Shown here: positions 18-26,345 of the stretch, piece after piece
Numbering within the stretch: the stretch's first letter is position 1
How the letters are laid out: the number at the start of each line of letters is the position of its first letter
Source of the DNA: a virus
Virus record (IMG/VR): IMGVR_UViG_3300031566_000009
Coordinates: 18,076 to 82,075 of that record
DNA length: 64,000 bases
Reading direction: 5' to 3' (one strand)
Notes under the pieces: model-generated
The model's input: the letters and a program-made list of their open reading frames with translations, nothing else
The model's database searches: none
What the model was told of the DNA's origin: nothing
Position numbers and translations under genes: made by a program

Positions 18-773
18 TCATACTGGAATATCCCCACCCTCCTCTTCTTCGACCACGCCAGTTTCTTCTTCAGTCTCTACGGTTGTCTCGACCTCGGTGG
101 TGACTTGGAACTCGCGGAGTTCGAGGAACTTATCGCGGAAGGGACGCCAATCGTAGGTCTTCGACGCCTCTTCGTCAACATTTATCACCGTTTCATACCA
201 AGTTCCGATGTCTCCTGTGATTGGGCCGATGGAAGATATCACCACAGGTCTTGCAAAGAGAACCGATTTAAAACGAATCTTGAACTCACTCAAGATTCTC
301 TTTGCATGTCTGACGCTCATACCACGCATCGACAGCATGAAGGGACTGTTCTCTTGTAAGTCCCAGCAAAGAAAGTTGTACATAATGGGGCACTGAGGTC
401 TGGTTCGATCCTTTCCCCAATTGGCATTTATACAATCAGAACATACCTTGGCGTATTCACCACGAAATCGTTCCATCGGAGTATGTGCATCATTGCTGGA
501 GCATAACAGATTTGCCTTTTGATCGAACATCGCCCTGCCGTGGGTAAACCGCAAGAGAACAGCCTTAATTAGTGGTTTCGCGTTTCTAGTTACGTTGTTA
601 ATGTACCAACCAAGTTCACCTTCTGTGATCTTTGAGAGAGCTTCCCTCTTGATATAGCGAGGGATTATTAAATCTGCTCTCCCAAAGGCTTCCATACCTT
701 CCCCTACTAGGTCGTCGGGGATTTCTGGAACTGCCGTTGGCAAAAACTCTTCCTTCTTGATCAAGTCAGTCAT
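18..773 (-). CDS. phage ssDNA-binding-like protein
   Basis: 251 aa; Cys cluster (CSS..C..C..PQC) and acidic C-terminal tail ending EEEEGGDIPV, as in SSB tails. Confidence 0.5.
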   Translation of the reverse strand: MTDLIKKEEFLPTAVPEIPDDLVGEGMEAFGRADLIIPRYIKREALSKITEGELGWYINNVTRNAKPLIKAVLLRFTHGRAMFDQKANLLCSSNDAHTPMERFRGEYAKVCSDCINANWGKDRTRPQCPIMYNFLCWDLQENSPFMLSMRGMSVRHAKRILSEFKIRFKSVLFARPVVISSIGPITGDIGTWYETVINVDEEASKTYDWRPFRDKFLELREFQVTTEVETTVETEEETGVVEEEEGGDIPV

Positions 774-1191
774 CTCTTCCTCCTAAGAGTTGTGCGAGGG
801 CTATATTAGCCCTCAATGTATTCTGCCTTCCATGTAATGCCGCTTCTAACATCCCCAAATACGCCTCTACCTTCGCCATCCTTCTCGCTATTTCATTCAC
901 CCTCTCCTGTGCATCCACCAATCCTTTCTCCCTCGATAGAAACCTTCCTAACTCAATCTTACGAATTTCTGCGTTTCGCCCCTTCACTACCGACGTTTTT
1001 GGATCGTCCAAACCATAGGCTAGAGCACTGGCATCAAACTCAGCTTGTTGAAGAATCAATCGTGCTGACTCCAAGTTCTCACGCTTCATACTGTCTAAAC
1101 GCACCTGCTCATCGATACAACGTATTTCAGCCTCCTCGATTTCCTGTGGAGCTTTTAACAGTTGCTCGATAATGCCCTCCCGAATACCCAT
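766..1191 (-). CDS. coiled-coil hypothetical protein
   Basis: GGAGG RBS before ATG 1191; helical charged sequence; overlaps next gene. Confidence 0.6.
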   Translation of the reverse strand: MGIREGIIEQLLKAPQEIEEAEIRCIDEQVRLDSMKRENLESARLILQQAEFDASALAYGLDDPKTSVVKGRNAEIRKIELGRFLSREKGLVDAQERVNEIARRMAKVEAYLGMLEAALHGRQNTLRANIALAQLLGGRDD

Positions 1192-1192
1192 T

Positions 1193-1438
1193 TTACCTCC
1201 TCCCACCTAGTTTCCCATAGATTATGGTGTAAGTATCTGATCCTTTTTCTGCCCTTCGCACTCGACCATCCTCTTCGTATTCATAGAAATCAGGCCCATC
1301 GTCTGGCAAGAATAACTCTGGTTCCCAAACTGTTTGATCGTGGATTACTGGTTCGCTTTTCAGCTTCGACGAAACATAGGAGATCAAAAAGACTCCCCAT
1401 AAGACACAGGCGAAAATAATTATGACGATGAATCCCAC
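1193..1438 (-). CDS. small membrane-anchored protein
   Basis: N-terminal hydrophobic helix followed by acidic tail. Confidence 0.55.
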   Translation of the reverse strand: MGFIVIIIFACVLWGVFLISYVSSKLKSEPVIHDQTVWEPELFLPDDGPDFYEYEEDGRVRRAEKGSDTYTIIYGKLGGRR

Positions 1439-2106
1439 AAAAAATCACGCCACTCCGATTTCAAATCAATCGACGCTATGCTTTCAAACTCTTGAAGAAG
1501 GATGAATGAGGCCAAAGTGACCATATTCGCTTTGTAACGATCCTTGGCCTCCCTCAATGAAAGATAGAAAGACTCTGGAAGATTCATAACTGTGGCGTTA
1601 TCGTGTAATTGCTTGGAATAAGACTGGAATTTTTCAGATCGAGCAACCTCTAAAACGGTATCTCTGTCAAGCGAGACAAAAATGTCTTTGGCTAATTTGG
1701 TGCGGCTTACTCCCTCTCGCTTCGCCAGATTTGAAAGAGTTTCATAGATGTCGATGTAGATACCTACACAGGGCCTGAACTTTTTATCTGCTAACTTCTC
1801 CAACACTGGATAGACTACTAATGAGAATTGTAGAACTGGTAAGTGTTGTTGGATTAGTGCAGTCAAGATTGCTTGTTTGGAACAGTCATATAGAACTGAC
1901 AAATCCCTTATAGTCTCAGTTGCGTTCTTGGAGATTCGCAAGTCTCGACAATTCGACGAATACAGTCTCTTCCAAGGCTTGACCAGTTCTACATCTAAAA
2001 CAAATGAGTGCTCCGTCACCAGATGAGAAGCGACGAAGTTTGGATTGAGTCCATGCGCTTCACAGGTGGCAAAGAAAGTATCTGCAATCTTGGTGGCTAT
2101 GAGCAA
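1420..2106 (-). CDS. tandem ribbon-helix-helix-like DNA-binding protein
   Basis: repeated beta-helix-helix-like segments (LRISKNATETIRDLS; IYETLSNLAKREGVSRTKL; MNLPESFYLSLREAK). Confidence 0.45.
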   Translation of the reverse strand: MLIATKIADTFFATCEAHGLNPNFVASHLVTEHSFVLDVELVKPWKRLYSSNCRDLRISKNATETIRDLSVLYDCSKQAILTALIQQHLPVLQFSLVVYPVLEKLADKKFRPCVGIYIDIYETLSNLAKREGVSRTKLAKDIFVSLDRDTVLEVARSEKFQSYSKQLHDNATVMNLPESFYLSLREAKDRYKANMVTLASFILLQEFESIASIDLKSEWRDFLWDSSS

Positions 2107-2333
2107 TTTAACTTTCCCAAACGCTCTAGCAATTCTTGTAAGTTCTTCATAAGCACGGCGACTTTATCCTCAAGGGGCAACGATTCGTAGATAAAGTATT
2201 CCTGCAAATGCCTCGTGTGCGCTTCTCTAACGAAGGCTGCCCGCGAAGCAATTTTTCCCTGATCTACTAAGTCGCCAGTCTTACGCCAACTTTCAATATC
2301 GACTCCTATCATTCGCTGCATAATTCTTTTCAT
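2097..2333 (-). CDS. CopG/Arc-like ribbon-helix-helix regulator
   Basis: LVDQGKIASRAAFVREA motif typical of RHH proteins. Confidence 0.55.
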   Translation of the reverse strand: MKRIMQRMIGVDIESWRKTGDLVDQGKIASRAAFVREAHTRHLQEYFIYESLPLEDKVAVLMKNLQELLERLGKLNCS

Positions 2334-3362: not shown

Positions 3363-3740
3363 CTATTTCCCCTGTAACATATTAATCAGTCGCTGCATCG
3401 CATAGTATTCAGGAACGGATAGATAAGAAACTGCGGAGGTAATCAAGATGGCGAACAAGACCGCAAATAGAGCAAAAAGGAAAAGGCCAGTTGCTACGAA
3501 GTCATTTGCAGAATTCGTCTCCCTGCAATGCTCACGATCACATTTCCTTTGAAGACCAAGCCCATGAAAACCTACTTTGAGAGAAACCAATGCTCCTAGA
3601 AAGGTAACTACAGCCCAAACTAGACAAGTGTAGCCTTGAACGATGATATTACGCACTGTGATGATCCACACTTGTTGAGCAGCGGGAGAAATCATTTGAC
3701 CGATTCGCTCTAGCAAAGAAACTACCCCTTCAGGGTTCAT
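3363..3740 (-). CDS. two-TM membrane protein
   Basis: ATG 3740 overlaps Ro60 stop (TGATG); AGGAGG RBS; two hydrophobic helices. Confidence 0.6.
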   Translation of the reverse strand: MNPEGVVSLLERIGQMISPAAQQVWIITVRNIIVQGYTCLVWAVVTFLGALVSLKVGFHGLGLQRKCDREHCRETNSANDFVATGLFLFALFAVLFAILITSAVSYLSVPEYYAMQRLINMLQGK

Positions 3741-5422
3741 CACGCCTCCTTTGTTGGTTCCTCTATAAACTGCTGGATGACCTGCGGACAAGCGGAATCA
3801 AAACCTACCACATCTAGCATTCCAACATCATTTGGATCGGCGATGGTAAAGCCCTCACTGGTCATACCCACGGTGATTAGTTTTGCTGGGATTCCAGTTT
3901 CACGGCGGTATTGCTTCAACGCCTGCACTGGATGAATATCCCCAGCCCAAGTTTCGTTGTCTGTGTAGACGATGAAACAATCTGCGGGAACGACATCGCG
4001 CTTTTGCTGCACCTGCGGTTGCAGTTGGCGACTCCAATAACGAGGGTAACGAGTACAATAAACATCTAAACCTAAAGCCCACAGCATAGGCAATGCACAG
4101 TCAGTGCCTCCAAAGGCAAGCCCGCCAAACTTCCTGACTACATCGTCGAGACGCTCTCGCGGTGAGACCTCGATAGGAACCATCGTATCAGAGAAGGCCA
4201 CCACTGTATAGTTTGGCTCGGTTCGAGCAGTTACCATAGCCATAGCTGCTGCTGCCTCACGTACCGTCAGTGGACTATCGCCCATAGAAGAGGTCATACT
4301 TCCAGAGACATCCACGGCCAAGACGAAACGTTTCCCAGTTGGCTTTACGTTTTGGAAACTCTCATAGAAGGCAGCATCGAGAGCATCCACAACTTGCGAG
4401 ACTGGTTGCCACTTCAGATTTCCTCTAGCCCCGTGGCCTGCAGCATAGGTGCGCATTCCCAATAGGATAGTAAATGGGTGCAATCTGGAACGGCTTAGAG
4501 CTTCAACATCAGAGAATCTCTGCACTACATACTTTGATGTTTCACTAAGGGGGGCGAGTAGTCCAATGTCACTCAACCTACCAAGGTTACGCATCAATGC
4601 CCAAAGGGGAGTATTAGGCAACAAGACTTCCCAAACCTTTGGGGAGCGCAACCACTTGGTATCAAGAGCTTCCCAAGGCAACTTACAATCGCTAACCAGC
4701 CGCACGATCTCCTTCGCATCATCAGTGATGGATGCCAGCTCGTAGCCGACCACGAACTTCTGCCACTGCTCTCCTGTATCTACAACGGTCATCAACCACT
4801 CTTTGCCATGACAGATCCAATCCAAAAGAATTTTATGTGCGGCGGAGTTCGTCTCAGGATGGCTCAATCGCAGCAAGTCACGGTGAGTCCAACCACCTCG
4901 CTGTCGATACTTCACCAATTGATAGGCCAAGTTTTCAGCCGATTTCTCGGTATACCACGAGCCTACAGCATCACGTAGTCCTCTACCCCAGCCACGAAAG
5001 GCTTGGATATAAGTAGCAAAGGTGAACAAATAGGTTCCTGTGCGGGCTACCCGATTCAACGAATGCAATGCAGCGGATCTCGTCTTTGCATCACCCAGTC
5101 CAGCACACATAGCTAAGACGAATAGGGCAGGATCGTTCTTTGGTGCTCTACCAGACTCGGAGATTTCTACGACCTGCTTTACAACGCGCTCGCCGTCGGC
5201 ATTGATGCAACGGAGCACCGCCTCTGCATTTTCCCGCGTCAGCTTATGCTCCTTTACATAATATGTACCACCTTCGGCTCCCAAGATCAGAAACCTGTCG
5301 AGACGCTTCCAGTCGTCTACATCCCAGACATAGCCACCAGCCTCGTTGACGGCCATATCTGCTCTACCTGGAATCGGCTCCTTCTGAGAAGTCTTTCGGA
5401 CATTGAAGTGTCTTTGATACAT
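3740..5422 (-). CDS. rsr: Ro60/Rsr TROVE-domain RNA-binding protein (TROVE + vWA)
   Basis: NEAGGY, RLDRFLILGAEGGTYY, KYRQRGGWTHRDLLRLSH, vWA MIDAS DVSGSM, GGTDCALPM, YTDNETW, DVVGFD motifs. Confidence 0.95.
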   Translation of the reverse strand: MYQRHFNVRKTSQKEPIPGRADMAVNEAGGYVWDVDDWKRLDRFLILGAEGGTYYVKEHKLTRENAEAVLRCINADGERVVKQVVEISESGRAPKNDPALFVLAMCAGLGDAKTRSAALHSLNRVARTGTYLFTFATYIQAFRGWGRGLRDAVGSWYTEKSAENLAYQLVKYRQRGGWTHRDLLRLSHPETNSAAHKILLDWICHGKEWLMTVVDTGEQWQKFVVGYELASITDDAKEIVRLVSDCKLPWEALDTKWLRSPKVWEVLLPNTPLWALMRNLGRLSDIGLLAPLSETSKYVVQRFSDVEALSRSRLHPFTILLGMRTYAAGHGARGNLKWQPVSQVVDALDAAFYESFQNVKPTGKRFVLAVDVSGSMTSSMGDSPLTVREAAAAMAMVTARTEPNYTVVAFSDTMVPIEVSPRERLDDVVRKFGGLAFGGTDCALPMLWALGLDVYCTRYPRYWSRQLQPQVQQKRDVVPADCFIVYTDNETWAGDIHPVQALKQYRRETGIPAKLITVGMTSEGFTIADPNDVGMLDVVGFDSACPQVIQQFIEEPTKEA

Positions 5423-5437
5423 CGATCCTCCTTTGAA

Positions 5438-5581
5438 TCGGGCGTGTTATTGCAAGTGGATTTTAGTATGCCAAATTCAGAACGCTTCTTGTACCTTGCC
5501 TGCTGTTTGCCTTTGCTGCTTGGAAAAGAGACGTTATGAATTTTGTCTTTACTTTACGATAACCCACCTACTTCGGCCCGA
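5438..5581 (-). ncRNA. Y RNA-like ncRNA 3 (~144 nt)
   Basis: TCGGGC-C-GAA-GTAGGTGGG-TTATC ... TCCACTTGC-AATAACAC-GCCCGA: terminal helix, bulged C, 9-bp helix; directly upstream of Ro60 RBS. Confidence 0.8.
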
Positions 5582-5583
5582 AT

Positions 5584-5707
5584 TGGTTGGGGGCTGGACT
5601 CGAACCAGCGACCTCTTCCTTAACATGGATAACCGTCGAACCTCGACCCTTGCAGATATGTTATGCCCAACGGGTTTAGTGCTCTACCAACTGAGCTACC
5701 CCAACCA
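5584..5707 (-). ncRNA. tRNA-Asn(GUU)-shaped RNA with 48-nt Y-RNA (Ro-binding) helix inserted in the anticodon stem (YrlA-related)
   Basis: acceptor GTTGGGG/CCCCAAC; D arm GCTC-AGTTGGTA-GAGC; T arm GCTGG-TTCGAGT-CCAGC; anticodon stem CT|TCC/GGAAG with loop ATGTTAA; insert 5630-5677. Confidence 0.85.
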
Positions 5708-5711
5708 CGAC

Positions 5712-5772
5712 GGTGGACGTGTCTTTGTTCGTGGGATCTTCCTATATGATAACCCATAAACTCCGGCCCACC
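5712..5772 (-). ncRNA. Y RNA-like ncRNA 1 (~61 nt, minimal)
   Basis: GGTGGGC-C-GGA-GTTTATGGG-TTATC ... CCCACGAAC-AAAGACAC-GTCCACC; begins ~8 nt after the -10 box. Confidence 0.8.
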
Positions 5773-5780
5773 TGAACCAT

Positions 5781-5809
5781 ATAGTAGCACAATGTCAACG
5801 ATTTGTCAA
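5781..5809 (-). promoter_or_regulatory. sigma70-type promoter for the Y RNA/Ro60 operon
   Basis: TTGACA-17 bp-TACTAT with extended TG. Confidence 0.8.
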
Positions 5810-6409
5810 ATTCGCCAAATGCTCCTCAAGTCTCTTTTCAGCCTTAGCATAAGTCTCATCAGATGATTCAATACCGATGAAGGATCGATCTGTATCAAGA
5901 CAAGAAATACCCACAGTGCCAGCACCCATCAAGGGATCGAGAACGACGCCATCTGGAGGAACAAATCGTATACAATACTGCGCCCAAGATAAACTCTGTT
6001 GCCAATGATGCAATCCCTTCTCTGGTGAAGGGCATTCAAAACCATCGGTGACGAAACCTCTTCCCTGTGGCCAAGCCTCCTTAACCCACCAAACCACAGG
6101 CTTCCACAAGACTTCCATACCCATCGCCATTCTAGGATGTGGCCCTTTGGCTTGCCACATACAAAGTATCCAACGATACTTTAGATGCTTTCCTACCGCT
6201 TCCAGAATCGTTGGCAGTGCATAATGAGGAGTGATAGCGATAAAACTACCACCCCGTTTGAGGATTCGTTTGGCTTCTGTTGCTATAGCCTCATAAAGAT
6301 AGAGAAACTTCTTTGGATATGGAGGATCTGTGATTATGGCGTCGATAGAGTCACTGGAGAAATCTCGTAGAATTTCCAAGCAGTCTCCTTTATAGAGTTT
6401 TATTGTCAT
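5795..6409 (-). CDS. DNA amino-methyltransferase (N6-A/N4-C, beta class)
   Basis: GDCLE, TDPPY motif IV before DPLMGAGT motif I; ATG 6409 overlaps upstream stop. Confidence 0.85.
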   Translation of the reverse strand: MTIKLYKGDCLEILRDFSSDSIDAIITDPPYPKKFLYLYEAIATEAKRILKRGGSFIAITPHYALPTILEAVGKHLKYRWILCMWQAKGPHPRMAMGMEVLWKPVVWWVKEAWPQGRGFVTDGFECPSPEKGLHHWQQSLSWAQYCIRFVPPDGVVLDPLMGAGTVGISCLDTDRSFIGIESSDETYAKAEKRLEEHLANLTNR

Positions 6410-6819
6410 TTCAATCCCTCCAAACATTCCTTCGCAAACCGATAATTAGTGCTCTCCTGTGCAAAGCTCCTCATAACTTCTTTGAGCAACGACGTATCCT
6501 TGATACAACTAATCGCAACCTGTCTAACCTGCCAATCATCGTCGGTAAATATGACTTCCATCAAGGTTTCCTTGTCTCGAATGAACATCAAAGACGCCCT
6601 TCGGAGGTATGAATCGGGATCTCCTAAGACGATCTTGGTCGCAAGCTCTGGATCGTCTAATTCGATTAGTGCTCTGCCTCGTGCTTGGCGAGTCTGCTTC
6701 TGACTACACGCCAAACCTCTCAGAGCATCTTGTCTCCTGATGTTTCGCATAGCTGCTCGCACAGCACAAGGCTTGCAGAAATCGACGAATTCCTTGCCAC
6801 AGGTTTTACAGAGTTTCAT
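6406..6819 (-). CDS. HEAT-like repeat protein with N-terminal CxxC
   Basis: repeats such as DPDSYLRRA / DDDWQVRQVA. Confidence 0.5.
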   Translation of the reverse strand: MKLCKTCGKEFVDFCKPCAVRAAMRNIRRQDALRGLACSQKQTRQARGRALIELDDPELATKIVLGDPDSYLRRASLMFIRDKETLMEVIFTDDDWQVRQVAISCIKDTSLLKEVMRSFAQESTNYRFAKECLEGLK

Positions 6820-7093
6820 CGAATAGCTTTATCACTGGTGCAATTGCCCTTTGTGTAATGATATCCGCTGCCTTTACGAGAGCTTTTTCTATGGCGTCGT
6901 TCAACGCTTCTTTTTCATGTCCTAGAAACGTAAAGGGGTATCCAGTTATCTCTTGAACCATAATATCATGGCTGCCGTCATTGACGACAACCTTGACGTA
7001 AGAGAGCGAGTTTTGTTGAAAGGAATCGATCACCGAAATTCGTGGATCACCTCGTAAATATAGCTCCCATAACACACTGTTTAATCTAGACAT
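6806..7093 (-). CDS. hypothetical protein
   Basis: GGAGG RBS, coupled overlaps. Confidence 0.5.
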   Translation of the reverse strand: MSRLNSVLWELYLRGDPRISVIDSFQQNSLSYVKVVVNDGSHDIMVQEITGYPFTFLGHEKEALNDAIEKALVKAADIITQRAIAPVIKLFDETL

Positions 7094-13334: not shown

Positions 13335-13363
13335 ATAGTAGCACAAGTGCTATGCCTTGTCAA
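13335..13363 (-). promoter_or_regulatory. sigma70-type promoter with palindromic operator
   Basis: TTGACA-17-TACTAT; contains TAGCAC-NN-GTGCTA. Confidence 0.8.
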
Positions 13364-14556: not shown

Positions 14557-14585
14557 ATCATAGCACAGATGCTATGATTTGTCAA
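14557..14585 (-). promoter_or_regulatory. sigma70-type promoter
   Basis: TTGACA-17-TATGAT with near-palindrome TAGCATCTGTGCTA. Confidence 0.75.
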
Positions 14586-17828: not shown

Positions 17829-17857
17829 ATCGTAGCACAAGTGCTATGAATTGTCAA
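17829..17857 (-). promoter_or_regulatory. sigma70-type promoter with palindromic operator
   Basis: TTGACA-17-TACGAT; ~36 bp identical to copy at 19193-19228. Confidence 0.8.
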
Positions 17858-19199: not shown

Positions 19200-19228
19200 A
19201 TCGTAGCACAAGTGCTATGAATTGTCAA
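19200..19228 (-). promoter_or_regulatory. sigma70-type promoter with palindromic operator
   Basis: TTGACA-17-TACGAT; TAGCACTTGTGCTA. Confidence 0.8.
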
Positions 19229-23929: not shown

Positions 23930-23958
23930 TTGACAAAAGCACGTCTTTGTGCTAAACT
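23930..23958 (+). promoter_or_regulatory. cassette promoter P1
   Basis: TTGACA-AAAGCACGTCTTTGTGC-TAAACT, preceded by ATGATTTATTGCACGCGCAAA. Confidence 0.7.
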
Positions 23959-24008
23959 CTTCTGCGTATTAAAAGAAAACCAACCAACTATAGAGAGGAT
24001 TTAGGATA

Positions 24009-24290
24009 ATGATAAGTAAAATTTCGCTTCGCAAGAATATCCAAGAATTACAGCGCGAAGTTAGTGGTCTACGCATAATAACCGAGGTATTATGGCAAGC
24101 ACAAGGGGATCCGAATTTGGAGATTGATATGCCTTCCTACGACGACCCCGAACCGTGGGCGATCCAGGCTTATCCGCGATATTGTAAAGCGTTAGCAAAG
24201 GAAGCCCAGCAACTATCAAAAGTAGTGGGCACAGAATTAAGAAGGTTGAAAGAGATGTTTTGCAGCCATAAAAATAGCACTCACGTATGA
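24009..24290 (+). CDS. hypothetical protein
   Basis: 93 aa between promoter repeats. Confidence 0.5.
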   Translation: MISKISLRKNIQELQREVSGLRIITEVLWQAQGDPNLEIDMPSYDDPEPWAIQAYPRYCKALAKEAQQLSKVVGTELRRLKEMFCSHKNSTHV

Positions 24291-24338
24291 GACATCGCTC
24301 GATGATTTATTGCACGCGCAAATCTACGAAATCCAAAT

Positions 24339-24367
24339 TTGACAAAAGCACGTCTTTATGCTACAAT
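24339..24367 (+). promoter_or_regulatory. cassette promoter P2
   Basis: TTGACA-17-TACAAT, same spacer family. Confidence 0.8.
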
Positions 24368-24393
24368 GATGATTCGGAAAGGAGAATACAAAG

Positions 24394-25575
24394 ATGAACT
24401 TTATCAGCCTTTTTGCGGGAATAGGTGGATTTGATTTAGGATTTGAGAGTACAGGAATGACCTGTGAAGGGCAAGTGGAAATAGATGGAGCTTGTAATAA
24501 TATACTTGAAAAACATTGGCCTAATGTAAAGAGGTATGGTGATGTCAAAGAATGCGGAAAACACAATCTCGAACAAGTTGATCTCATCTGTGGAGGATTC
24601 CCCTGCCAAGACGTATCGGTGGCCGGACGCCGCGAGGGATTGGCTGGAAGCAAGTCAGGACTCTGGTTTGAGTTCTATCGAATTCTTGAAGAGCTTAGAC
24701 CAGGATGGGTTGTCATCGAAAATGTTCCAGGCTTGTTATCATCTAACAAAGGACGGGACTTTGCCACCATCCTTCAAGGGTTGGCGAAACTCAGGTATCT
24801 GTCGGCCTGGAGAATCTTGGACGCTCAATACTTCGGAGTGGCCCAGCGACGCCGCCGTGTGTTCATTGTCGGACATCTTGGAGACGGATGTGCTGCCGAA
24901 GTACTCTTTGAGCCGACGTGCGGCCCAAGGAATACTCCGCCGAGCAGAGAAACGGGGGCGAGAGTTACCCCCTTTGCTCCAGGCGGCTTTGGAGAGTATA
25001 AGGAAGGATTAACTACCTTGCGAGTTGGTGGGGGGAATGATAGTCAAGGACTAGTGGCTTGGCATGAAAATAAATCTGGTGAACTTACTCCCTCAGACCA
25101 TATGAAGGCTCTCCGAAGCGGGGCGAGTCATAGTTATCAAGGCATAGCTTATCAGCAGAACGATTTTGATGCCAGCAGAACAAATAATCAGCACATAATC
25201 TATCAAGAATCTCAGTATGGAATCAAGAAATACAACGAGGCTGGAAGTCTAAGAGCTGGTCGCATACCTGAGCATCAAATGCTAATACAGAATAATACCA
25301 AAACAGATAATCAGCATGTACTAGCTCCAACAATCGGTGCAGATATAGGGCGACAGGCTGGCGGACATCCTGGAATTGAAGAATATGTAGGGGCAGTACA
25401 TTCAGCAGGTTTTGGCGTCCGTCGCCTCACACCTGCGGAGTGCGAACGATTGCAAGGCTTTCCAGATAATTGGACGGCGGGACAAAGTGATACCAAGAGA
25501 TACAAGCAACTGGGAAATGCAGTTTGTGTTCCTGTTATAGAGTGGCTTGGACGACGGATTATGCAATTCAAGTAG
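24394..25575 (+). CDS. dcm: DNA (cytosine-5) methyltransferase
   Basis: SLFAGIGG, GGFPCQD, ENV, QRRRRVF, RRLTPAECERLQGFPD, LGNAV motifs. Confidence 0.95.
   Translation: MNFISLFAGIGGFDLGFESTGMTCEGQVEIDGACNNILEKHWPNVKRYGDVKECGKHNLEQVDLICGGFPCQDVSVAGRREGLAGSKSGLWFEFYRILEELRPGWVVIENVPGLLSSNKGRDFATILQGLAKLRYLSAWRILDAQYFGVAQRRRRVFIVGHLGDGCAAEVLFEPTCGPRNTPPSRETGARVTPFAPGGFGEYKEGLTTLRVGGGNDSQGLVAWHENKSGELTPSDHMKALRSGASHSYQGIAYQQNDFDASRTNNQHIIYQESQYGIKKYNEAGSLRAGRIPEHQMLIQNNTKTDNQHVLAPTIGADIGRQAGGHPGIEEYVGAVHSAGFGVRRLTPAECERLQGFPDNWTAGQSDTKRYKQLGNAVCVPVIEWLGRRIMQFK
24536..25012 (+). CDS. overlapping alternative-frame beta polypeptide of the C5-MTase (M.EcoHK31I-beta-like)
   Basis: KMF..C ... W.NSG....GE.W..NT.E.PS....CSLS.ILET ... 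RA..RG..LP pattern; true start uncertain. Confidence 0.65.
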   Translation: MVMSKNAENTISNKLISSVEDSPAKTYRWPDAARDWLEASQDSGLSSIEFLKSLDQDGLSSKMFQACYHLTKDGTLPPSFKGWRNSGICRPGESWTLNTSEWPSDAAVCSLSDILETDVLPKYSLSRRAAQGILRRAEKRGRELPPLLQAALESIRKD

Positions 25576-25646
25576 CCGCTAGATGATTTATTGCACGCGC
25601 AAAACAGCAAATCAAAAAGTATTCATTGCACGTCCAAAACAGAAAT

Positions 25647-25675
25647 TTGACAAAAGCACGTCTTTATGTTACAAT
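25647..25675 (+). promoter_or_regulatory. cassette promoter P3
   Basis: TTGACA-17-TACAAT. Confidence 0.8.
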
Positions 25676-25706
25676 GGATTCACTCATAAGAAGGAGAAAA
25701 TAAATA

Positions 25707-25931
25707 ATGGAGTACGAATATGTGGCGTTGACGTGGAGAGCACTCGACGCAGAGGCGGATAGGTTCTTTCAGGATGACAAATGTGGCTATATTGGTGCAG
25801 GATGGAAGGAATATATTCGTGCGCCATTCCCACCCCCACATTTTGGTGGGGCCTGCATCCTACGAAGAGCCAAGGAGGAACTGCGCATGTGGACAAAATC
25901 TGAATTGCAAGAGTTAATTAGAGAAACTTAA
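25707..25931 (+). CDS. hypothetical protein
   Basis: AAGGAG RBS; single-gene cassette. Confidence 0.55.
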   Translation: MEYEYVALTWRALDAEADRFFQDDKCGYIGAGWKEYIRAPFPPPHFGGACILRRAKEELRMWTKSELQELIRET

Positions 25932-25959
25932 CATTTCATTACACGTCCAAAACAGCAAT

Positions 25960-25988
25960 TTGACAAAAGCACGTCTTTATGCTATACT
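25960..25988 (+). promoter_or_regulatory. cassette promoter P4
   Basis: TTGACA-17-TATACT. Confidence 0.8.
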
Positions 25989-26016
25989 CTCCAACGAAGA
26001 CAAAAAGGAGGAGAAC

Positions 26017-26313
26017 ATGATGGGGGGAGTCTTATGTTGGTTAGGATTGCATAAATGGCTGTGGGGCAAAGTCTTACCTGCTCGATTTTGCCGTCGATGC
26101 GGATTACTGCAAAGTTGGCGTATTCCTGGAATGGGATCTTGGACTACTATTGGTCAATTGACAACTAAACTACGAGCATTTGATGAGGGAACGAGGGATG
26201 CGCTTGATGATTTATATCTTACTTGGAAACAGACTGGATGTTTTCCCAGTCGTTTTGATTTTTTGTTGTCCTTCAGATCGAGTGATGGAATTGACCTTCA
26301 GATCAAGGGCTAG
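26017..26313 (+). CDS. zinc-binding phage protein
   Basis: LCWLGLHKW ... RFCRRCG; AGGAGG RBS. Confidence 0.55.
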   Translation: MMGGVLCWLGLHKWLWGKVLPARFCRRCGLLQSWRIPGMGSWTTIGQLTTKLRAFDEGTRDALDDLYLTWKQTGCFPSRFDFLLSFRSSDGIDLQIKG

Positions 26314-26316
26314 AAT

Positions 26317-26345
26317 TTGACAAAAGCACGCCCTTGTGGTATAAT
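26317..26345 (+). promoter_or_regulatory. cassette promoter P5
   Basis: TTGACA-17-TATAAT with TG extension. Confidence 0.85.

What the first reader, a model, noticed from the sequence alone, without database searches (positions are those of the whole stretch)
5584..5707. A complete tRNA-Asn cloverleaf with a Ro60-binding helix grafted into the anticodon stem
Seen: removing 5630-5677 (48 nt) leaves exactly 73 nt folding as a tRNA: acceptor GUUGGGG/CCCCAAC, canonical D and T arms, anticodon stem CUUCC/GGAAG and loop AUGUUAA (anticodon GUU at 5624-5622). The insert between positions 28 and 29 is the Y-RNA stem in permuted order (3' strand, GCAA tetraloop, 5' strand GGGU-C-GAG-GUUCGACGG-UUAUC). 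Oddities: A32, C73 paired to G-1 (His-like, not the Asn G73), acceptor extendable to 9 bp, no CCA in canonical register. Known: described YrlA RNAs are circularly permuted tRNA mimics with a loop-closed acceptor and the Ro stem replacing the anticodon arm. Inference: this RNA has true tRNA topology with free ends and a retained anticodon loop. It could be a Ro60-tethered decoy for host anticodon nucleases or a tRNA-to-Y-RNA evolutionary intermediate. I cannot confirm it is unreported.
Basis: partly seen in the sequence, partly recalled or inferred. Interest (0 to 1): 0.9.

Follow-up and report, generated by a model that had tools for sequence, protein, structure and literature searches.

The report
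tRNA-shaped Y RNA beside phage Ro60
An uncultured soil phage encodes, just upstream of its Ro60 gene, an RNA built like a complete tRNA with an extra arm in the anticodon stem that looks like the Ro60 docking helix of Y RNAs, a layout of the known YrlA RNAs that I did not find described in print.

Summary
At 5705-5585 (- strand) lies a 121-nt RNA gene. It scores as a tRNA in Rfam (47.2 bits) but carries a 48-nt hairpin between anticodon-stem positions 28 and 29. Deleting that hairpin in silico gives a 73-nt cloverleaf that ARAGORN calls tRNA-Asn(GUU).

The hairpin has the parts of a Y-RNA Ro60-binding stem in reversed strand order, closed by GCAA. The gene is the middle of three tandem Y modules that run from one strong promoter into a Ro60 (TROVE + vWA) gene.

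I found 27 such tRNA-topology Y RNAs near Ro60 genes on viral contigs. Twelve have the same 28|29 graft, with varied anticodons; 10 of those 12 keep both U33 and a purine at 37.

Best reading: a Ro60 partner RNA of the YrlA kind with ordinary tRNA ends, probably released from the precursor by tRNA end-processing. Binding, ends and function are untested. Splicing, decoding and nuclease-decoy roles are not shown.

It fails the Rfam YrlA model, and none of the papers I could search describes it. Earlier notes of this scan report the same design on other DNA.

The parts
5781..5809 (-). Sigma-70-type promoter with extended -10 (TTGACA, 17 nt, TG-n-TACTAT). The predicted start lies about 7 nt downstream, at the foot of Y module 1.
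   Evidence: 10 of 12 consensus positions, TG present; the pattern TTGACA-N14-16-TGNTANNNT occurs 10 times in the window against 0.05 expected; 0 of 100 shuffles reach 10.
5712..5772 (-). Y module 1, a minimal Y-RNA hairpin. Terminal helix GGUGGGC[C]G / CGUCCACC with a bulged C, an internal loop, a 9-bp upper helix, then UUAUC.
   Evidence: Rfam RF01656 (nematode stem-bulge/Y-like RNA), 20.0 bits, below the cut-off of 38, so resemblance only. Fold: -19.1 kcal/mol, z = -1.73.
5585..5705 (-). tRNA-shaped Y RNA, nt 1-73 plus a 48-nt graft. This is the object of the finding.
   Evidence: Own covariance model R1 scores it 119.9 bits; that match is by construction.
5630..5677 (-). Grafted Y stem between tRNA nt 28 and 29. 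In order: AAA linker; C, then CCGUUGGGC (5673-5665, the 3' strand of a Y stem); AUAACAU; AUCU; GCAA cap (5653-5650); GGGU-CGAG (5649-5642, the 5'-strand motif); GUUCGACGG (5641-5633); UUA.
   Evidence: The folds give a 9-bp outer helix and a 4-bp inner helix. 9 of 9 pairs form between the 9-mer before UUAUC and the upstream strand, shuffle p = 0.002. The segments are parallel to those of modules 1 and 3.
5615..5629 (-). Anticodon hairpin UCC-AUGUUAA-GGA(AG), with GUU at 5624-5622. The last AG pairs with C27 U28 (5679-5678), completing a 5-bp stem.
   Evidence: 5 of 5 pairs, and only at the 28|29 split; pairs 27-43 and 28-42 are formed in 7 of 7 aligned relatives, and 28-42 covaries (UA 3, CG 2, GC 2).
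5438..5581 (-). Y module 3, a long Y-RNA-like hairpin in the Ro60 leader. Terminal helix UCGGGC[C]G / CGCCCGA, motif GCCGAAG, 9-bp upper helix, UUAUC, and a loop domain of about 95 nt. It ends 3 nt before the ribosome-binding site AAAGGAGG (5434-5427).
   Evidence: RF01656, 25.1 bits, E 0.007, below the cut-off of 38. Fold: -39.9 kcal/mol, z = -3.86, 0 of 200 shuffles as good. The same leader module occurs in the closest relative, L032.
3740..5422 (-). Ro60 orthologue, 560 aa, with TROVE and Ro60-type vWA domains.
   Evidence: PF25045 E 3e-66 and PF05731 E 1.1e-43; 36-48% identical to the 'Ro-like RNA binding protein' in the listed cultured-phage records, of 368 matching records, all under 60%.

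Best explanation
This is a partner RNA (Y RNA) of the phage's own Ro60 protein. It belongs to the tRNA-like YrlA kind but has the chain order of an ordinary tRNA.

Architecture:
- The Ro60 docking helix is not formed by the RNA's two ends, as it is in YrlA.
- Instead it is a self-closed hairpin that branches from the 5' strand of the anticodon stem between nt 28 and 29.
- The acceptor stem is left open, and the D arm, T arm and a tRNA-like anticodon arm are intact.

Proposed steps:
1. One promoter transcribes Y1, the tRNA-shaped Y RNA, Y3 and the Ro60 gene. The DNA layout and promoter family are shown; the transcript is inferred.
2. Host tRNA end-processing (RNase P at the 5' side, 3' trimming, perhaps CCA addition) cuts at the tRNA-shaped module and so frees all three Y RNAs. 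This is inferred from the 2-6 nt linkers and from the precedent of M. smegmatis YrlA.
3. Ro60 binds the GGGUCGAG strand and bulged helix of each module. This is inferred from motif homology and linkage.
4. The tRNA part presents a genuine tRNA surface (elbow and anticodon loop) to an unknown host tRNA-binding factor, which is thereby tethered to Ro60. This is inferred from the Y-RNA tether model.

It is probably not a decoding tRNA.
For: (a) Linkage. The RNA ends 162 nt upstream of a Ro60 gene (start codon at 5422), on the same strand. No terminator-like site lies in 5300-6000.

(b) Likeness of the three modules. The graft shares segment by segment the layout of the two flanking Y-like hairpins: GGGYCG with an extra C, a short purine loop, a 9-bp helix, UUAUC, and an A-rich ACA loop opposite.

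(c) Recurrence.
- A model built from 7 such RNAs, plus parsing, gives 27 tRNA-topology Y RNAs among 33 insert-bearing hits, on viral contigs with a Ro60 relative in the fetched stretch (one, L127, without).
- All hits in the 77 protein-fetched loci lie on the Ro60 strand.
- 13 of 78 loci fetched through Ro60, the window included, hold at least one.

(d) Structure is kept through sequence change.
- On 7 aligned 28|29-graft RNAs, 86.9% of cells pair, against 68.6% in shuffles (0 of 500 reach it) and 40-49% when partners are slid.
- 23 of 35 pairs have compensatory changes.
- RNAalifold independently predicts the acceptor, D, T, inner Y helix and anticodon hairpin.
- 15 of 15 inserts fold into the same two-helix hairpin.
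- A variant contig from a soil run changes G39 and G69 to A, and each change turns a G.U pair into A-U in the outer helix.

(e) tRNA-likeness.
- ARAGORN of 8 insert-deleted sequences as tRNAs with the predicted anticodon.
- Of the 12 grafts at 28|29, 11 have U33, 11 have R37 and 10 have both. Their anticodons are GUU x4, UGU x2, GAU, UGG, UUU, UCC and two irregular loops.

(f) Precedent. M. smegmatis YrlA and YrlB are cut from one precursor. That YrlA is cleaved by RNase P and gains CCA in vivo (PMC4201824, section read).
Against: - There is no RNA-level evidence. No public RNA run holds the locus. Transcript ends, processing and Ro60 binding are all inferred.
- The inner helix of the graft is weak: 4 bp, two of them G.U.
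- The 5'-strand motif departs from the published GNCGAAN0-1G at one position (GUCGAGG), so this module may bind Ro60 less well than module 3 (GCCGAAG).
- Folding energy is not clearly better than for shuffles: z = -1.67 for the RNA and -0.95 for the insert.
- The ungapped 9-mer helix test is significant for the window (p = 0.002), but only 16 of 27 relatives reach 8 of 9 pairs, and several have p > 0.5. Some of this is because their helices have bulges or my anchor was misplaced.
- MAFFT puts the outer helix out of register, so only 61.9% of its cells pair.
- The effector of any YrlA is unknown, so step 4 has no direct support.
Confidence: 0.8

Rival explanations
1. Processing punctuation only. 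The tRNA shape exists mainly so that RNase P and 3' processing enzymes cut the three-module precursor into separate Y RNAs. On this view the anticodon arm is a structural leftover with no ligand of its own.
For: - The modules abut with linkers of only 6 and 3-4 nt.
- The promoter starts transcription at the foot of module 1.
- There is precedent for precursor cutting and RNase P cleavage of a Y RNA (PMC4201824).
- The closest relative, L032, also strings tRNA-shaped and plain Y modules together.
Against: - A punctuation mark would not need a Ro60 docking stem of its own, nor a 7-nt loop with U33 and R37 kept in 10 of 12 relatives while the anticodon varies.
- Permuted YrlAs, whose ends do not depend on RNase P, keep the same elbow and often the same anticodon-like arm.
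- This reading can be true together with the main one.
Confidence: 0.25
2. Bait for tRNA-directed host defences. The RNP offers an authentic anticodon arm to host anticodon nucleases or other tRNA-targeting factors, and Ro60 (with a recruited exonuclease) sequesters them or senses the cut. The varying anticodons would track the specificities of host nucleases.
For: - Anticodon-loop rules are kept while anticodons differ among relatives: GUU, UGU, UUU, GAU, UGG, UCC.
- 8 of the 12 loops end in U36-A37-A38.
- A Ro60-like protein of coliphage Bas63 was reported to counter the 'ppl' defence. Its authors suggested that neighbouring annotated tRNAs may be Y RNAs (preprint 10.1101/2024.10.10.617714, passages read).
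- In Salmonella the rsr-yrlBA-rtcBA operon responds to damaged tRNAs (PMC7790460, search listing and abstract only).
Against: - No defence gene, nuclease or RNA-repair gene was found beside this locus. Ten neighbouring ORFs gave only a DNA methyltransferase and a membrane protein.
- No cleavage or binding data exist.
- The loop pattern could equally serve a modification enzyme or a purely structural U-turn.
Confidence: 0.15
3. A working tRNA-Asn gene interrupted by an intron-like or mobile insert, which is removed to give a decoding tRNA.
For: - Removing exactly 48 nt restores a cloverleaf that ARAGORN accepts.
- The phage record has no other tRNA-model match.
Against: - I know of no bacterial or phage splicing at position 28|29 (recalled, not tested).
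- The insert carries the Ro60 motif and is linked to Ro60 genes in every relative.
- The same graft occurs in permuted YrlAs, where excision cannot yield a tRNA.
- Relatives with the graft replacing the loop or the whole arm have no anticodon at all.
- DNA contigs show no insert-free allele of this locus. The 'joints' are other organisms' ordinary tRNAs, laid at 80% likeness.
- C73 is not the G73 recalled for tRNA-Asn identity in E. coli (recalled).
Confidence: 0.04
4. A decayed tRNA gene or a chance resemblance, with no function.
For: ARAGORN does not call it. Folding z-scores are weak.
Against: - Rfam E is 5.9e-07.
- All helices are intact.
- Compensatory changes occur across relatives.
- The position and strand relative to Ro60 are conserved.
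Confidence: 0.01

Closest known systems
YrlA (Y RNA-like A) of bacteria and mycobacteriophages. Sources: Rfam RF02553; Chen et al. 2014, PMC4201824 (outline, passages and sections 5, 6 and 8 read); Wang et al. 2018 preprint 10.1101/312249 (passages read).
   Same: - It is encoded next to Ro60 on the same strand.
- It has the Ro60-strand motif of the GNCGAA type followed by YUAY (here UUAU).
- It has near-invariant tRNA-like D and T arms.
- It often has a hairpin between the Ro strand and the T arm.
- It sits in a multi-Y operon processed from one precursor.
   Different: - Chain order. In YrlA the 5' and 3' ends form the Ro60 stem and the acceptor-like stem is closed by a loop ('circularly permuted tRNA', Wang et al.). 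Here the acceptor ends are open and the Ro60 stem is closed by GCAA.
- The Rfam model gives 15 bits against a cut-off of 69.
- The acceptor stem here is a full 7 bp, extendable to 9.
[quoted passage not shown] 2014, section 8).
   Same: The end product has open acceptor ends on a tRNA-like body that carries a Ro60 stem, and it shows that tRNA enzymes act on Y RNAs.
   Different: That RNA is made as a permuted transcript and becomes two pieces (82 and 65 nt) held by base pairing. The window's RNA would be one continuous chain.
Metazoan Y RNAs and nematode stem-bulge RNAs (Rfam RF01656).
   Same: They share a bulged-C terminal helix, a second helix and a UUAUC-type motif. Modules 1 and 3 give weak matches of 20.0 and 25.1 bits.
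   Different: - The matches are below the family cut-off of 38.
- Those RNAs have no tRNA domain.
- In the tRNA-shaped RNA the two strands are in reversed order.
Thermus phage phiLo Ro60 with Yrl1 and Yrl2 (PMC12135203, passages read).
   Same: It is a phage Ro60 with two Y-like RNAs encoded upstream. Binding to Ro60 and to host PNPase was shown in vitro.
   Different: The passages describe Yrl1 and Yrl2 as stem-bulge-stem RNAs with a CGAA motif. No tRNA-shaped form is mentioned in the passages I read.
Circularly permuted tRNA genes of algae and archaea (as cited in Wang et al. 2018).
   Same: They show that the two chain orders of a tRNA fold can interconvert in evolution.
   Different: Those are processed into decoding tRNAs, and no Ro60 stem is involved.

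Membership tests
YrlA (Rfam RF02553 / Chen et al. 2014) | Encoded within a few kb of a Ro60/TROVE gene, on the same strand | tested here: met
   The RNA's 3' end at 5585 lies 162 nt from the Ro60 start codon at 5422, and both are on the - strand.
YrlA (Rfam RF02553 / Chen et al. 2014) | GNCGAAN0-1G motif in the Ro60-binding 5' strand | tested here: inconclusive
   The graft has GUCGAGG, one departure from the motif. Module 3 has GCCGAAG, an exact match. Module 1 has GCCGGAG, one departure (motif as given in PMC4201824).
YrlA (Rfam RF02553 / Chen et al. 2014) | tRNA-like D and T arms with the conserved elbow nucleotides, and YUAY after the Ro strand | tested here: met
   The Rfam tRNA model scores 47.2 bits across D and T. 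UUAU follows the 5' strand at 5632-5629.
YrlA (Rfam RF02553 / Chen et al. 2014) | Permuted chain order: T arm, loop-closed acceptor-like stem, D arm, with the RNA ends forming the Ro60 stem | tested here: not met
   The order here is acceptor 5', D, Y 3' strand, GCAA, Y 5' strand, anticodon hairpin, T, acceptor 3'. Only one D arm and one T arm lie in the locus.
YrlA (Rfam RF02553 / Chen et al. 2014) | Score at or above the Rfam gathering cut-off | tested here: not met
   15 bits against 69, and the partial match is displaced to 5627-5527.
YrlA (Rfam RF02553 / Chen et al. 2014) | Bound by Ro60/Rsr in vivo | not testable with these tools
   No RNA or binding data exist, and no RNA run holds the locus.
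tRNA (Rfam RF00005) | Cloverleaf with a 7-bp acceptor stem, D and T arms, and a score above the cut-off | tested here: met
   47.2 bits against 29. The acceptor forms 7 of 7 pairs.
tRNA (Rfam RF00005) | Continuous 5-bp anticodon stem with a 7-nt loop, U33 and R37 | tested here: inconclusive
   The loop AUGUUAA has U33 and A37, and the 5 pairs exist. The 5' strand, however, is interrupted by 48 nt between positions 28 and 29. ARAGORN rejects the intact sequence.
tRNA (Rfam RF00005) | Mature CCA end, aminoacylation and use in decoding | not testable with these tools
   CCA is not encoded. The discriminator is C. The G73 identity rule for Asn is recalled, not tested.
Intron-containing tRNA gene | An insert at a site and with a structure that a known splicing system removes (group I intron in the anticodon loop, or an archaeal bulge-helix-bulge) | tested here: not met
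   The insert is 48 nt, too short for a group I intron. It lies in the stem at 28|29 and folds as a plain two-helix hairpin. Rfam finds no intron family. The rules for known splice sites are recalled.

The most novel reading that the evidence does not exclude
Phage Ro60-type ring proteins in general work with real tRNA bodies that carry a protein-docking 'handle' branching from the anticodon stem at 28|29. The handle-tagged tRNAs would be matured by RNase P and the CCA enzyme, and would display fast-changing but rule-abiding anticodon loops as bait for host tRNA-directed defences (anticodon nucleases and the like). Ro60 would then neutralise or report those defences. On this view the permuted YrlA of textbooks is a derived form of a tRNA that acquired a handle, not a product of a tRNA dimer. 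The same principle would extend to the DUF2828 and divergent-TROVE proteins, each of which has its own handle.
Probability: 0.15. Interest if true: 0.9.

Novelty: new variant of a known kind. Interest (0 to 1): 0.7.

Why it matters
Y RNAs are thought to tether Ro60 to other factors, but the partner of the tRNA-like YrlA domain is unknown, and its origin is debated. The preprint of Wang et al. 2018 cites a model in which YrlA arose from dimeric tRNA transcripts.

A form with ordinary tRNA ends and an intact, rule-abiding anticodon arm bears on three points:
- The Ro60 stem is best seen as a branch inserted at 28|29 of a complete tRNA.
- There is a simple evolutionary route between the two chain orders, by tandem duplication and shifted ends. 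Tandem tRNA-topology units occur in loci L009, L014, L069, L084 and L141.
- These RNAs become predicted substrates of RNase P, the CCA enzyme and anticodon-loop enzymes, all of which can be tested in vitro.

There is also a practical consequence. tRNA finders and Rfam either miss these genes or label them tRNA, 'tRNA-OTHER' or tRNA-Asn, so phage tRNA inventories near Ro60-like genes need re-reading.

Tried and rejected
- Megablast of 3500-7000 against GenBank phages gave no match.
- ARAGORN on the window found nothing. With its intron option it calls all 8 intact sequences, but 7 of 8 with an anticodon other than the predicted one, so I did not use those calls.
- Expression: no RNA holder is listed for 5400-5850, and only soil DNA contigs could be laid. 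The 'joints' there are other organisms' ordinary tRNAs, matched at 80% likeness. Of the 12 shown, 7 carried what I read by hand as GUU anticodon arms. I do not count this as evidence for an Asn body, because one search shows the body is generic: among the 40 most similar ordinary tRNAs of 765, Asn 7, Phe 7, Thr 6, Lys 5. That set is also biased by how the loci were picked.
- G-1:C73 as a family mark is rejected: 21 of 28 against 76 of 136 ordinary tRNAs, Fisher p = 0.09. My placing of the discriminator base may also be imperfect.
- MAFFT alignment A1 puts the outer Y helix, and the 29-31 strand of the window and L032, one column out of register. The model-fitted alignment A2 misplaced the window's 29-31 as well. 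I therefore parsed the helices with scripts anchored on the D and T arms.
- The ungapped 9-mer test of the outer helix is weak for many relatives.
- Nine cultured phages were inspected: Cashline, Sparky, Forza, Beuffert, SM23, Pumpernickel, LukeCage, Atu_ph07 and Trina. That is 9 of 368 records with a Ro60 match. In them I saw only permuted YrlAs or nothing clear, so I know of no cultured phage with the tRNA-topology form.
- Is DUF2828 a Ro60 relative? hhalign of 8 TROVE against 5 DUF2828 proteins aligned only the vWA region (probability 48%, E 1.9e-4). phmmer against PDB sequences gave nothing meaningful. The protein-atlas look-up put TROVE clusters in 27 of 30 nearest named hits (score 0.92-0.93), which is a lead only.
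- Neighbouring ORFs gave no RNA-repair or nuclease gene.
- Literature: the searches found no description of a tRNA-topology YrlA or of RNAs tied to DUF2828. The two reviews by Sim and Wolin (2018) and Sim et al. (2020) are not held, and the supplements of Chen et al. 2014 are closed. Either could mention such forms.
Full report
WHAT IS THERE.

The window is part of an 82-kb IMG/VR virus record, which CheckV rates 53% complete. DNA of the locus occurs in soil metagenome runs. On the - strand a 560-aa ORF (3740-5422) is a Ro60 orthologue: vWA_Ro60 E 3e-66 and TROVE E 1.1e-43.

Upstream lies a sigma-70-type promoter with an extended -10 box (5809-5781). It is one of 10 matches in the window to a shared promoter pattern, against 0.05 expected. 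No terminator-like site lies between it and the Ro60 start.

Between the promoter and the ribosome-binding site lie three RNA modules, separated by 6 and 3-4 nt:

- **Y1 (5772-5712)** and **Y3 (5581-5438)** are hairpins with the layout of Y RNAs. Each has a terminal helix with an extra C, a short purine loop, a 9-bp helix, UUAUC, and an A-rich loop on the opposite strand.
- They match Rfam's nematode Y-like family only weakly, at 20.0 and 25.1 bits against a cut-off of 38.
- They fold as expected. Y3 has z = -3.86.
- The middle module is the finding.

THE OBSERVATION.

The main checks are these:

- Rfam's tRNA model matches 5705-5585 at 47.2 bits, E 5.9e-07. It is the only match above a gathering score in the window, and it shows a 61-nt insertion in the anticodon region.
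- ARAGORN finds no tRNA in the window.
- After a script removed 5677-5630, ARAGORN calls tRNA-Asn(gtt).
- The 5-bp anticodon stem is restored only when the split is placed between nt 28 and 29.
- The unconstrained minimum-energy fold shows the acceptor (8 bp with G-1:C73), the D arm, a two-helix insert capped by GCAA, a 3-bp hairpin with the loop AUGUUAA, and the T arm.
- Energy alone is not convincing: z = -1.67.

The insert lines up segment for segment with Y1 and Y3, but with the 3' strand first:

- CCGUUGGGC pairs with GUUCGACGG: 9 of 9 pairs, shuffle p = 0.002.
- AUAACAU faces CGAG.
- AUCU pairs with GGGU.

THE SAME DESIGN ELSEWHERE.

Ro60 relatives brought in 77 viral loci. A D-arm/T-loop pattern with a 55-85 nt gap brought in 117 more viral stretches and 120 stretches from bacterial and archaeal genomes. 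I built a covariance model from 7 graft-bearing RNAs and parsed its hits with scripts.

I examined 33 insert-bearing hits and accepted 27 as tRNA-topology Y RNAs. Acceptance required at least 6 of 7 acceptor pairs and intact D and T stems. I dropped six rows as spans across tandem permuted units or as mis-parsed: L020, L043, L047, L052, L077 and L033.

The 27 fall into three forms, plus one left unclassed:

| Form | Count | Description |
|---|---|---|
| Graft at 28\|29 | 12 | Anticodon hairpin retained (the window's form) |
| Loop replaced | 11 | Intact 5-bp anticodon stem, Y stem in place of the loop |
| Arm replaced | 3 | Y stem replaces the whole anticodon arm |
| Unclassed | 1 | L032 2573-2697 |

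Other features of the set:

- Units of different forms sit in tandem in L009, L014, L069, L084 and L141.
- 13 of the 78 loci reached through Ro60 (window included) hold at least one tRNA-topology unit.
- By my strict script, at least 21 of the 78 hold a classical permuted YrlA with a loop-closed acceptor-like stem (a lower bound).

STRUCTURE SUPPORT.

- On the 7-sequence alignment, 86.9% of cells pair, against 68.6% in shuffles (0 of 500 reach it) and 40-49% with slid partners.
- 23 of 35 pairs change on both sides.
- The two pairs 27-43 and 28-42 that hold the junction are formed in 7 of 7 sequences.
- RNAalifold, given no structure, predicts the acceptor, D, T, inner Y helix and anticodon hairpin, and 15 of its 25 pairs are compensatory.
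- It misses the outer helix, which MAFFT puts out of register.
- 15 of 15 inserts fold alone into the same two-helix hairpin.
- 26 different 9-mers occupy the outer-helix strand in 27 RNAs, and 16 of the 27 reach 8 of 9 ungapped pairs.
- A variant contig in one soil run carries four listed changes. By my mapping, two turn G.U into A-U in the outer helix and two lie in the CGAG loop.

THE ANTICODON ARM.

The loops of the 12 grafts at 28|29 are:

| Loop | Occurrences |
|---|---|
| AUGUUAA | 1 |
| CUGUUAA | 3 |
| CUGAUAA | 1 |
| CUUGGGG | 1 |
| AUUUUAA | 1 |
| CUUGUAA | 2 |
| CUUCCAC | 1 |
| CAUUUAA (irregular) | 1 |
| CUAUCCA (irregular) | 1 |

- U33 occurs in 11 of 12, a purine at 37 in 11 of 12, and both in 10 of 12.
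- L009 and L069 are close relatives, so these are not 12 independent cases.
- The anticodon varies while the loop keeps tRNA rules. Selection therefore seems to act on the shape of the loop, not on Asn identity.
- The body is generic, and the G-1:C73 pair is not special.

The same arm exists in permuted YrlAs. Of 27 parsed, 15 have the split 5-bp stem with a 7-nt loop, and 12 of the 15 have U33 and R37. Three of these rows are duplicate sequences. I read the same arm by eye in cultured phages Sparky (AUUGCAA), Cashline (CUGCAAA) and SM23 (CUGUUAA). In SM23 the GenBank record even annotates a 67-nt 'tRNA-Asn'.

Chen et al. 2014 describe this element as a less conserved 'V' stem-loop and place YUAY at its start. 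The junction has no nucleotide between the hairpin's 3' strand and pairs 42-43. I therefore infer that the hairpin stacks on those pairs as a continuous anticodon stem and that the Y stem projects sideways. This rests on general rules for three-way junctions, which I recall and did not test.

HOW IT MOST LIKELY WORKS.

Shown:

- the gene layout, the promoter family and the tRNA-model match
- the motif and helix homology to the neighbouring Y modules
- linkage to Ro60
- conservation with covariation.

Inferred:

1. One transcript carries Y1, the tRNA-shaped RNA, Y3 and the Ro60 message.
2. RNase P and 3' trimming at the tRNA-shaped module free the three RNAs. The precedent is M. smegmatis, where YrlA and YrlB come from one precursor and YrlA is cut by RNase P and receives CCA.
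3. Ro60 docks on the GGGUCGAG strand.
4. The tRNA part recruits a tRNA-binding factor. This follows the tether model and the expectation of Wang et al. that the effector recognises the elbow.

I give the identity 'Ro60 partner RNA of YrlA kind with tRNA chain order' a probability of 0.8. The processing step I put at about 0.5. Any specific effector ranks much lower. Rivals are listed separately. Splicing to a working tRNA is unlikely. A bait role against tRNA-directed defences is attractive but unsupported here.

COMPARISON WITH WHAT IS KNOWN.

It works like YrlA but fails two defining features of that family as modelled:

- the permuted chain order
- the Rfam score of 15 bits against 69.

The published texts I could read describe YrlA as lacking a free CCA end and resembling circularly permuted tRNAs. 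No search returned a tRNA-topology form. Two reviews and the supplements of the 2014 paper were out of reach. I file it as a new variant of a known kind.

Earlier notes of this scan, read after my own analysis, describe the same three-module operon in this window and the same tRNA-topology design on other DNA.

WIDER PATTERN, SEEN IN PASSING.

Many of the pattern-picked tRNAs carry other inserts at the same 28|29 site:

- A hairpin plus ACAGCAA. All 31 loops that I tallied by eye from the rows parsed at 28|29 or 29|30 have U33 and R37. One of them is the Y-type L141 RNA and three carry the ...GUUACUUC insert.
- An insert ending in ...GUUACUUC.

Their loci hold DUF2828+DUF7788 proteins or divergent TROVE proteins:

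| Loci set | DUF2828 | Divergent TROVE | TROVE | Total with a Ro60-like gene |
|---|---|---|---|---|
| 117 viral | 31 | 4 | 5 | 40 |
| 120 genome | 15 | 4 | 8 | 27 |

Rfam has no family for these RNAs beyond tRNA. Whether DUF2828 is a Ro60 relative is not settled:

- hhalign aligned the vWA region only.
- The protein-atlas look-up gives a lead only.

Noticed in passing
L086 6303-6877, L134 4649-5198, L116 3717-4287, L087 9482-9826(-), L078, L176 and many others: A second family of insert-bearing phage tRNA-like genes. At the same 28|29 site of the anticodon stem they carry an A-rich linker, a 6-9 bp hairpin and the motif (U/A)ACAGCAA. All 31 loops I tallied from the rows parsed at 28|29 or 29|30 (a few carry other insert types) keep a 7-nt loop with U33 and R37, and they often stand 2-4 in tandem. 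A same-strand ORF of 485-550 aa with Pfam DUF2828 + DUF7788 lies beside them: 5 of 10 ORFs tested by Pfam, and 46 loci by tblastn. Rfam has only the generic tRNA match. I found no paper on DUF2828 and RNA. Earlier notes of this scan describe the same pairing on other DNA.
   Followed up: partly
L094 147-271(-) with ORF 664-2286(-); L079 4110-4238(-); L100 72-434(-); L291 6364-6493; also L220, L223, L235, L246, L294, L303, L310 (Bacteroidota contigs): A third flavour of insert ends in ...GUUAC(UUC) before the anticodon hairpin. In the L094 and L291 loci it lies in the same fetched stretch as a divergent TROVE + vWA_Ro60 protein (TROVE 52.9 bits in L094; 8 loci by tblastn). A Bacteroidota group with AUUAYC...GGUCAA...UUACUUC inserts was seen but its protein partner was not examined.
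   Followed up: partly
window 5438-5581 and 5427-5434; L032 2905-2990: The last Y module sits in the Ro60 leader and ends 3 nt before the ribosome-binding site. This holds in the window and in the closest relative, L032. Ro60 binding there could feed back on its own translation. Not tested.
   Followed up: partly
window 5781-5809, 13335-13363, 14557-14585, 17829-17857, 19200-19228 (-); 23930-26345 (+, five sites): There are ten extended -10 promoters of one family, against 0.05 expected. The five on the - strand share TGTGCTA around the -10 box. The five on the + strand share AAAGCACG in the spacer. This agrees with an earlier first-reader note on this window.
   Followed up: partly
L203 2598-2806 (Rhodococcus phage Trina); L199 2671-2737 (Microbacterium phage SM23): Public annotation labels parts of permuted YrlA loci just upstream of Ro60 as a 209-nt pseudo 'tRNA-OTHER' and a 67-nt 'tRNA-Asn'. 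Phage tRNA counts near Ro60 genes can therefore include Y RNAs.
   Followed up: partly
L009 2458-2517; L014 365-424: Where two tRNA-topology units stand in tandem, the acceptor 3' strand of the first can also pair with the acceptor 5' strand of the second (6 pairs, several of them G.U). The junction could thus alternatively fold like a permuted YrlA core. This may be chance, or it may hint at how the two chain orders interconvert.
   Followed up: no
L090 14095-14337(-): A HEARO RNA (Rfam RF02033, 139.4 bits) lies on the same viral contig as a DUF2828 locus. It is probably unrelated.
   Followed up: no
window 5795-6427(-): The gene just upstream of the Y-RNA promoter is a DNA methyltransferase (PF01555 E 1.9e-11; phrog_67 E 1.4e-34).
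   Followed up: no
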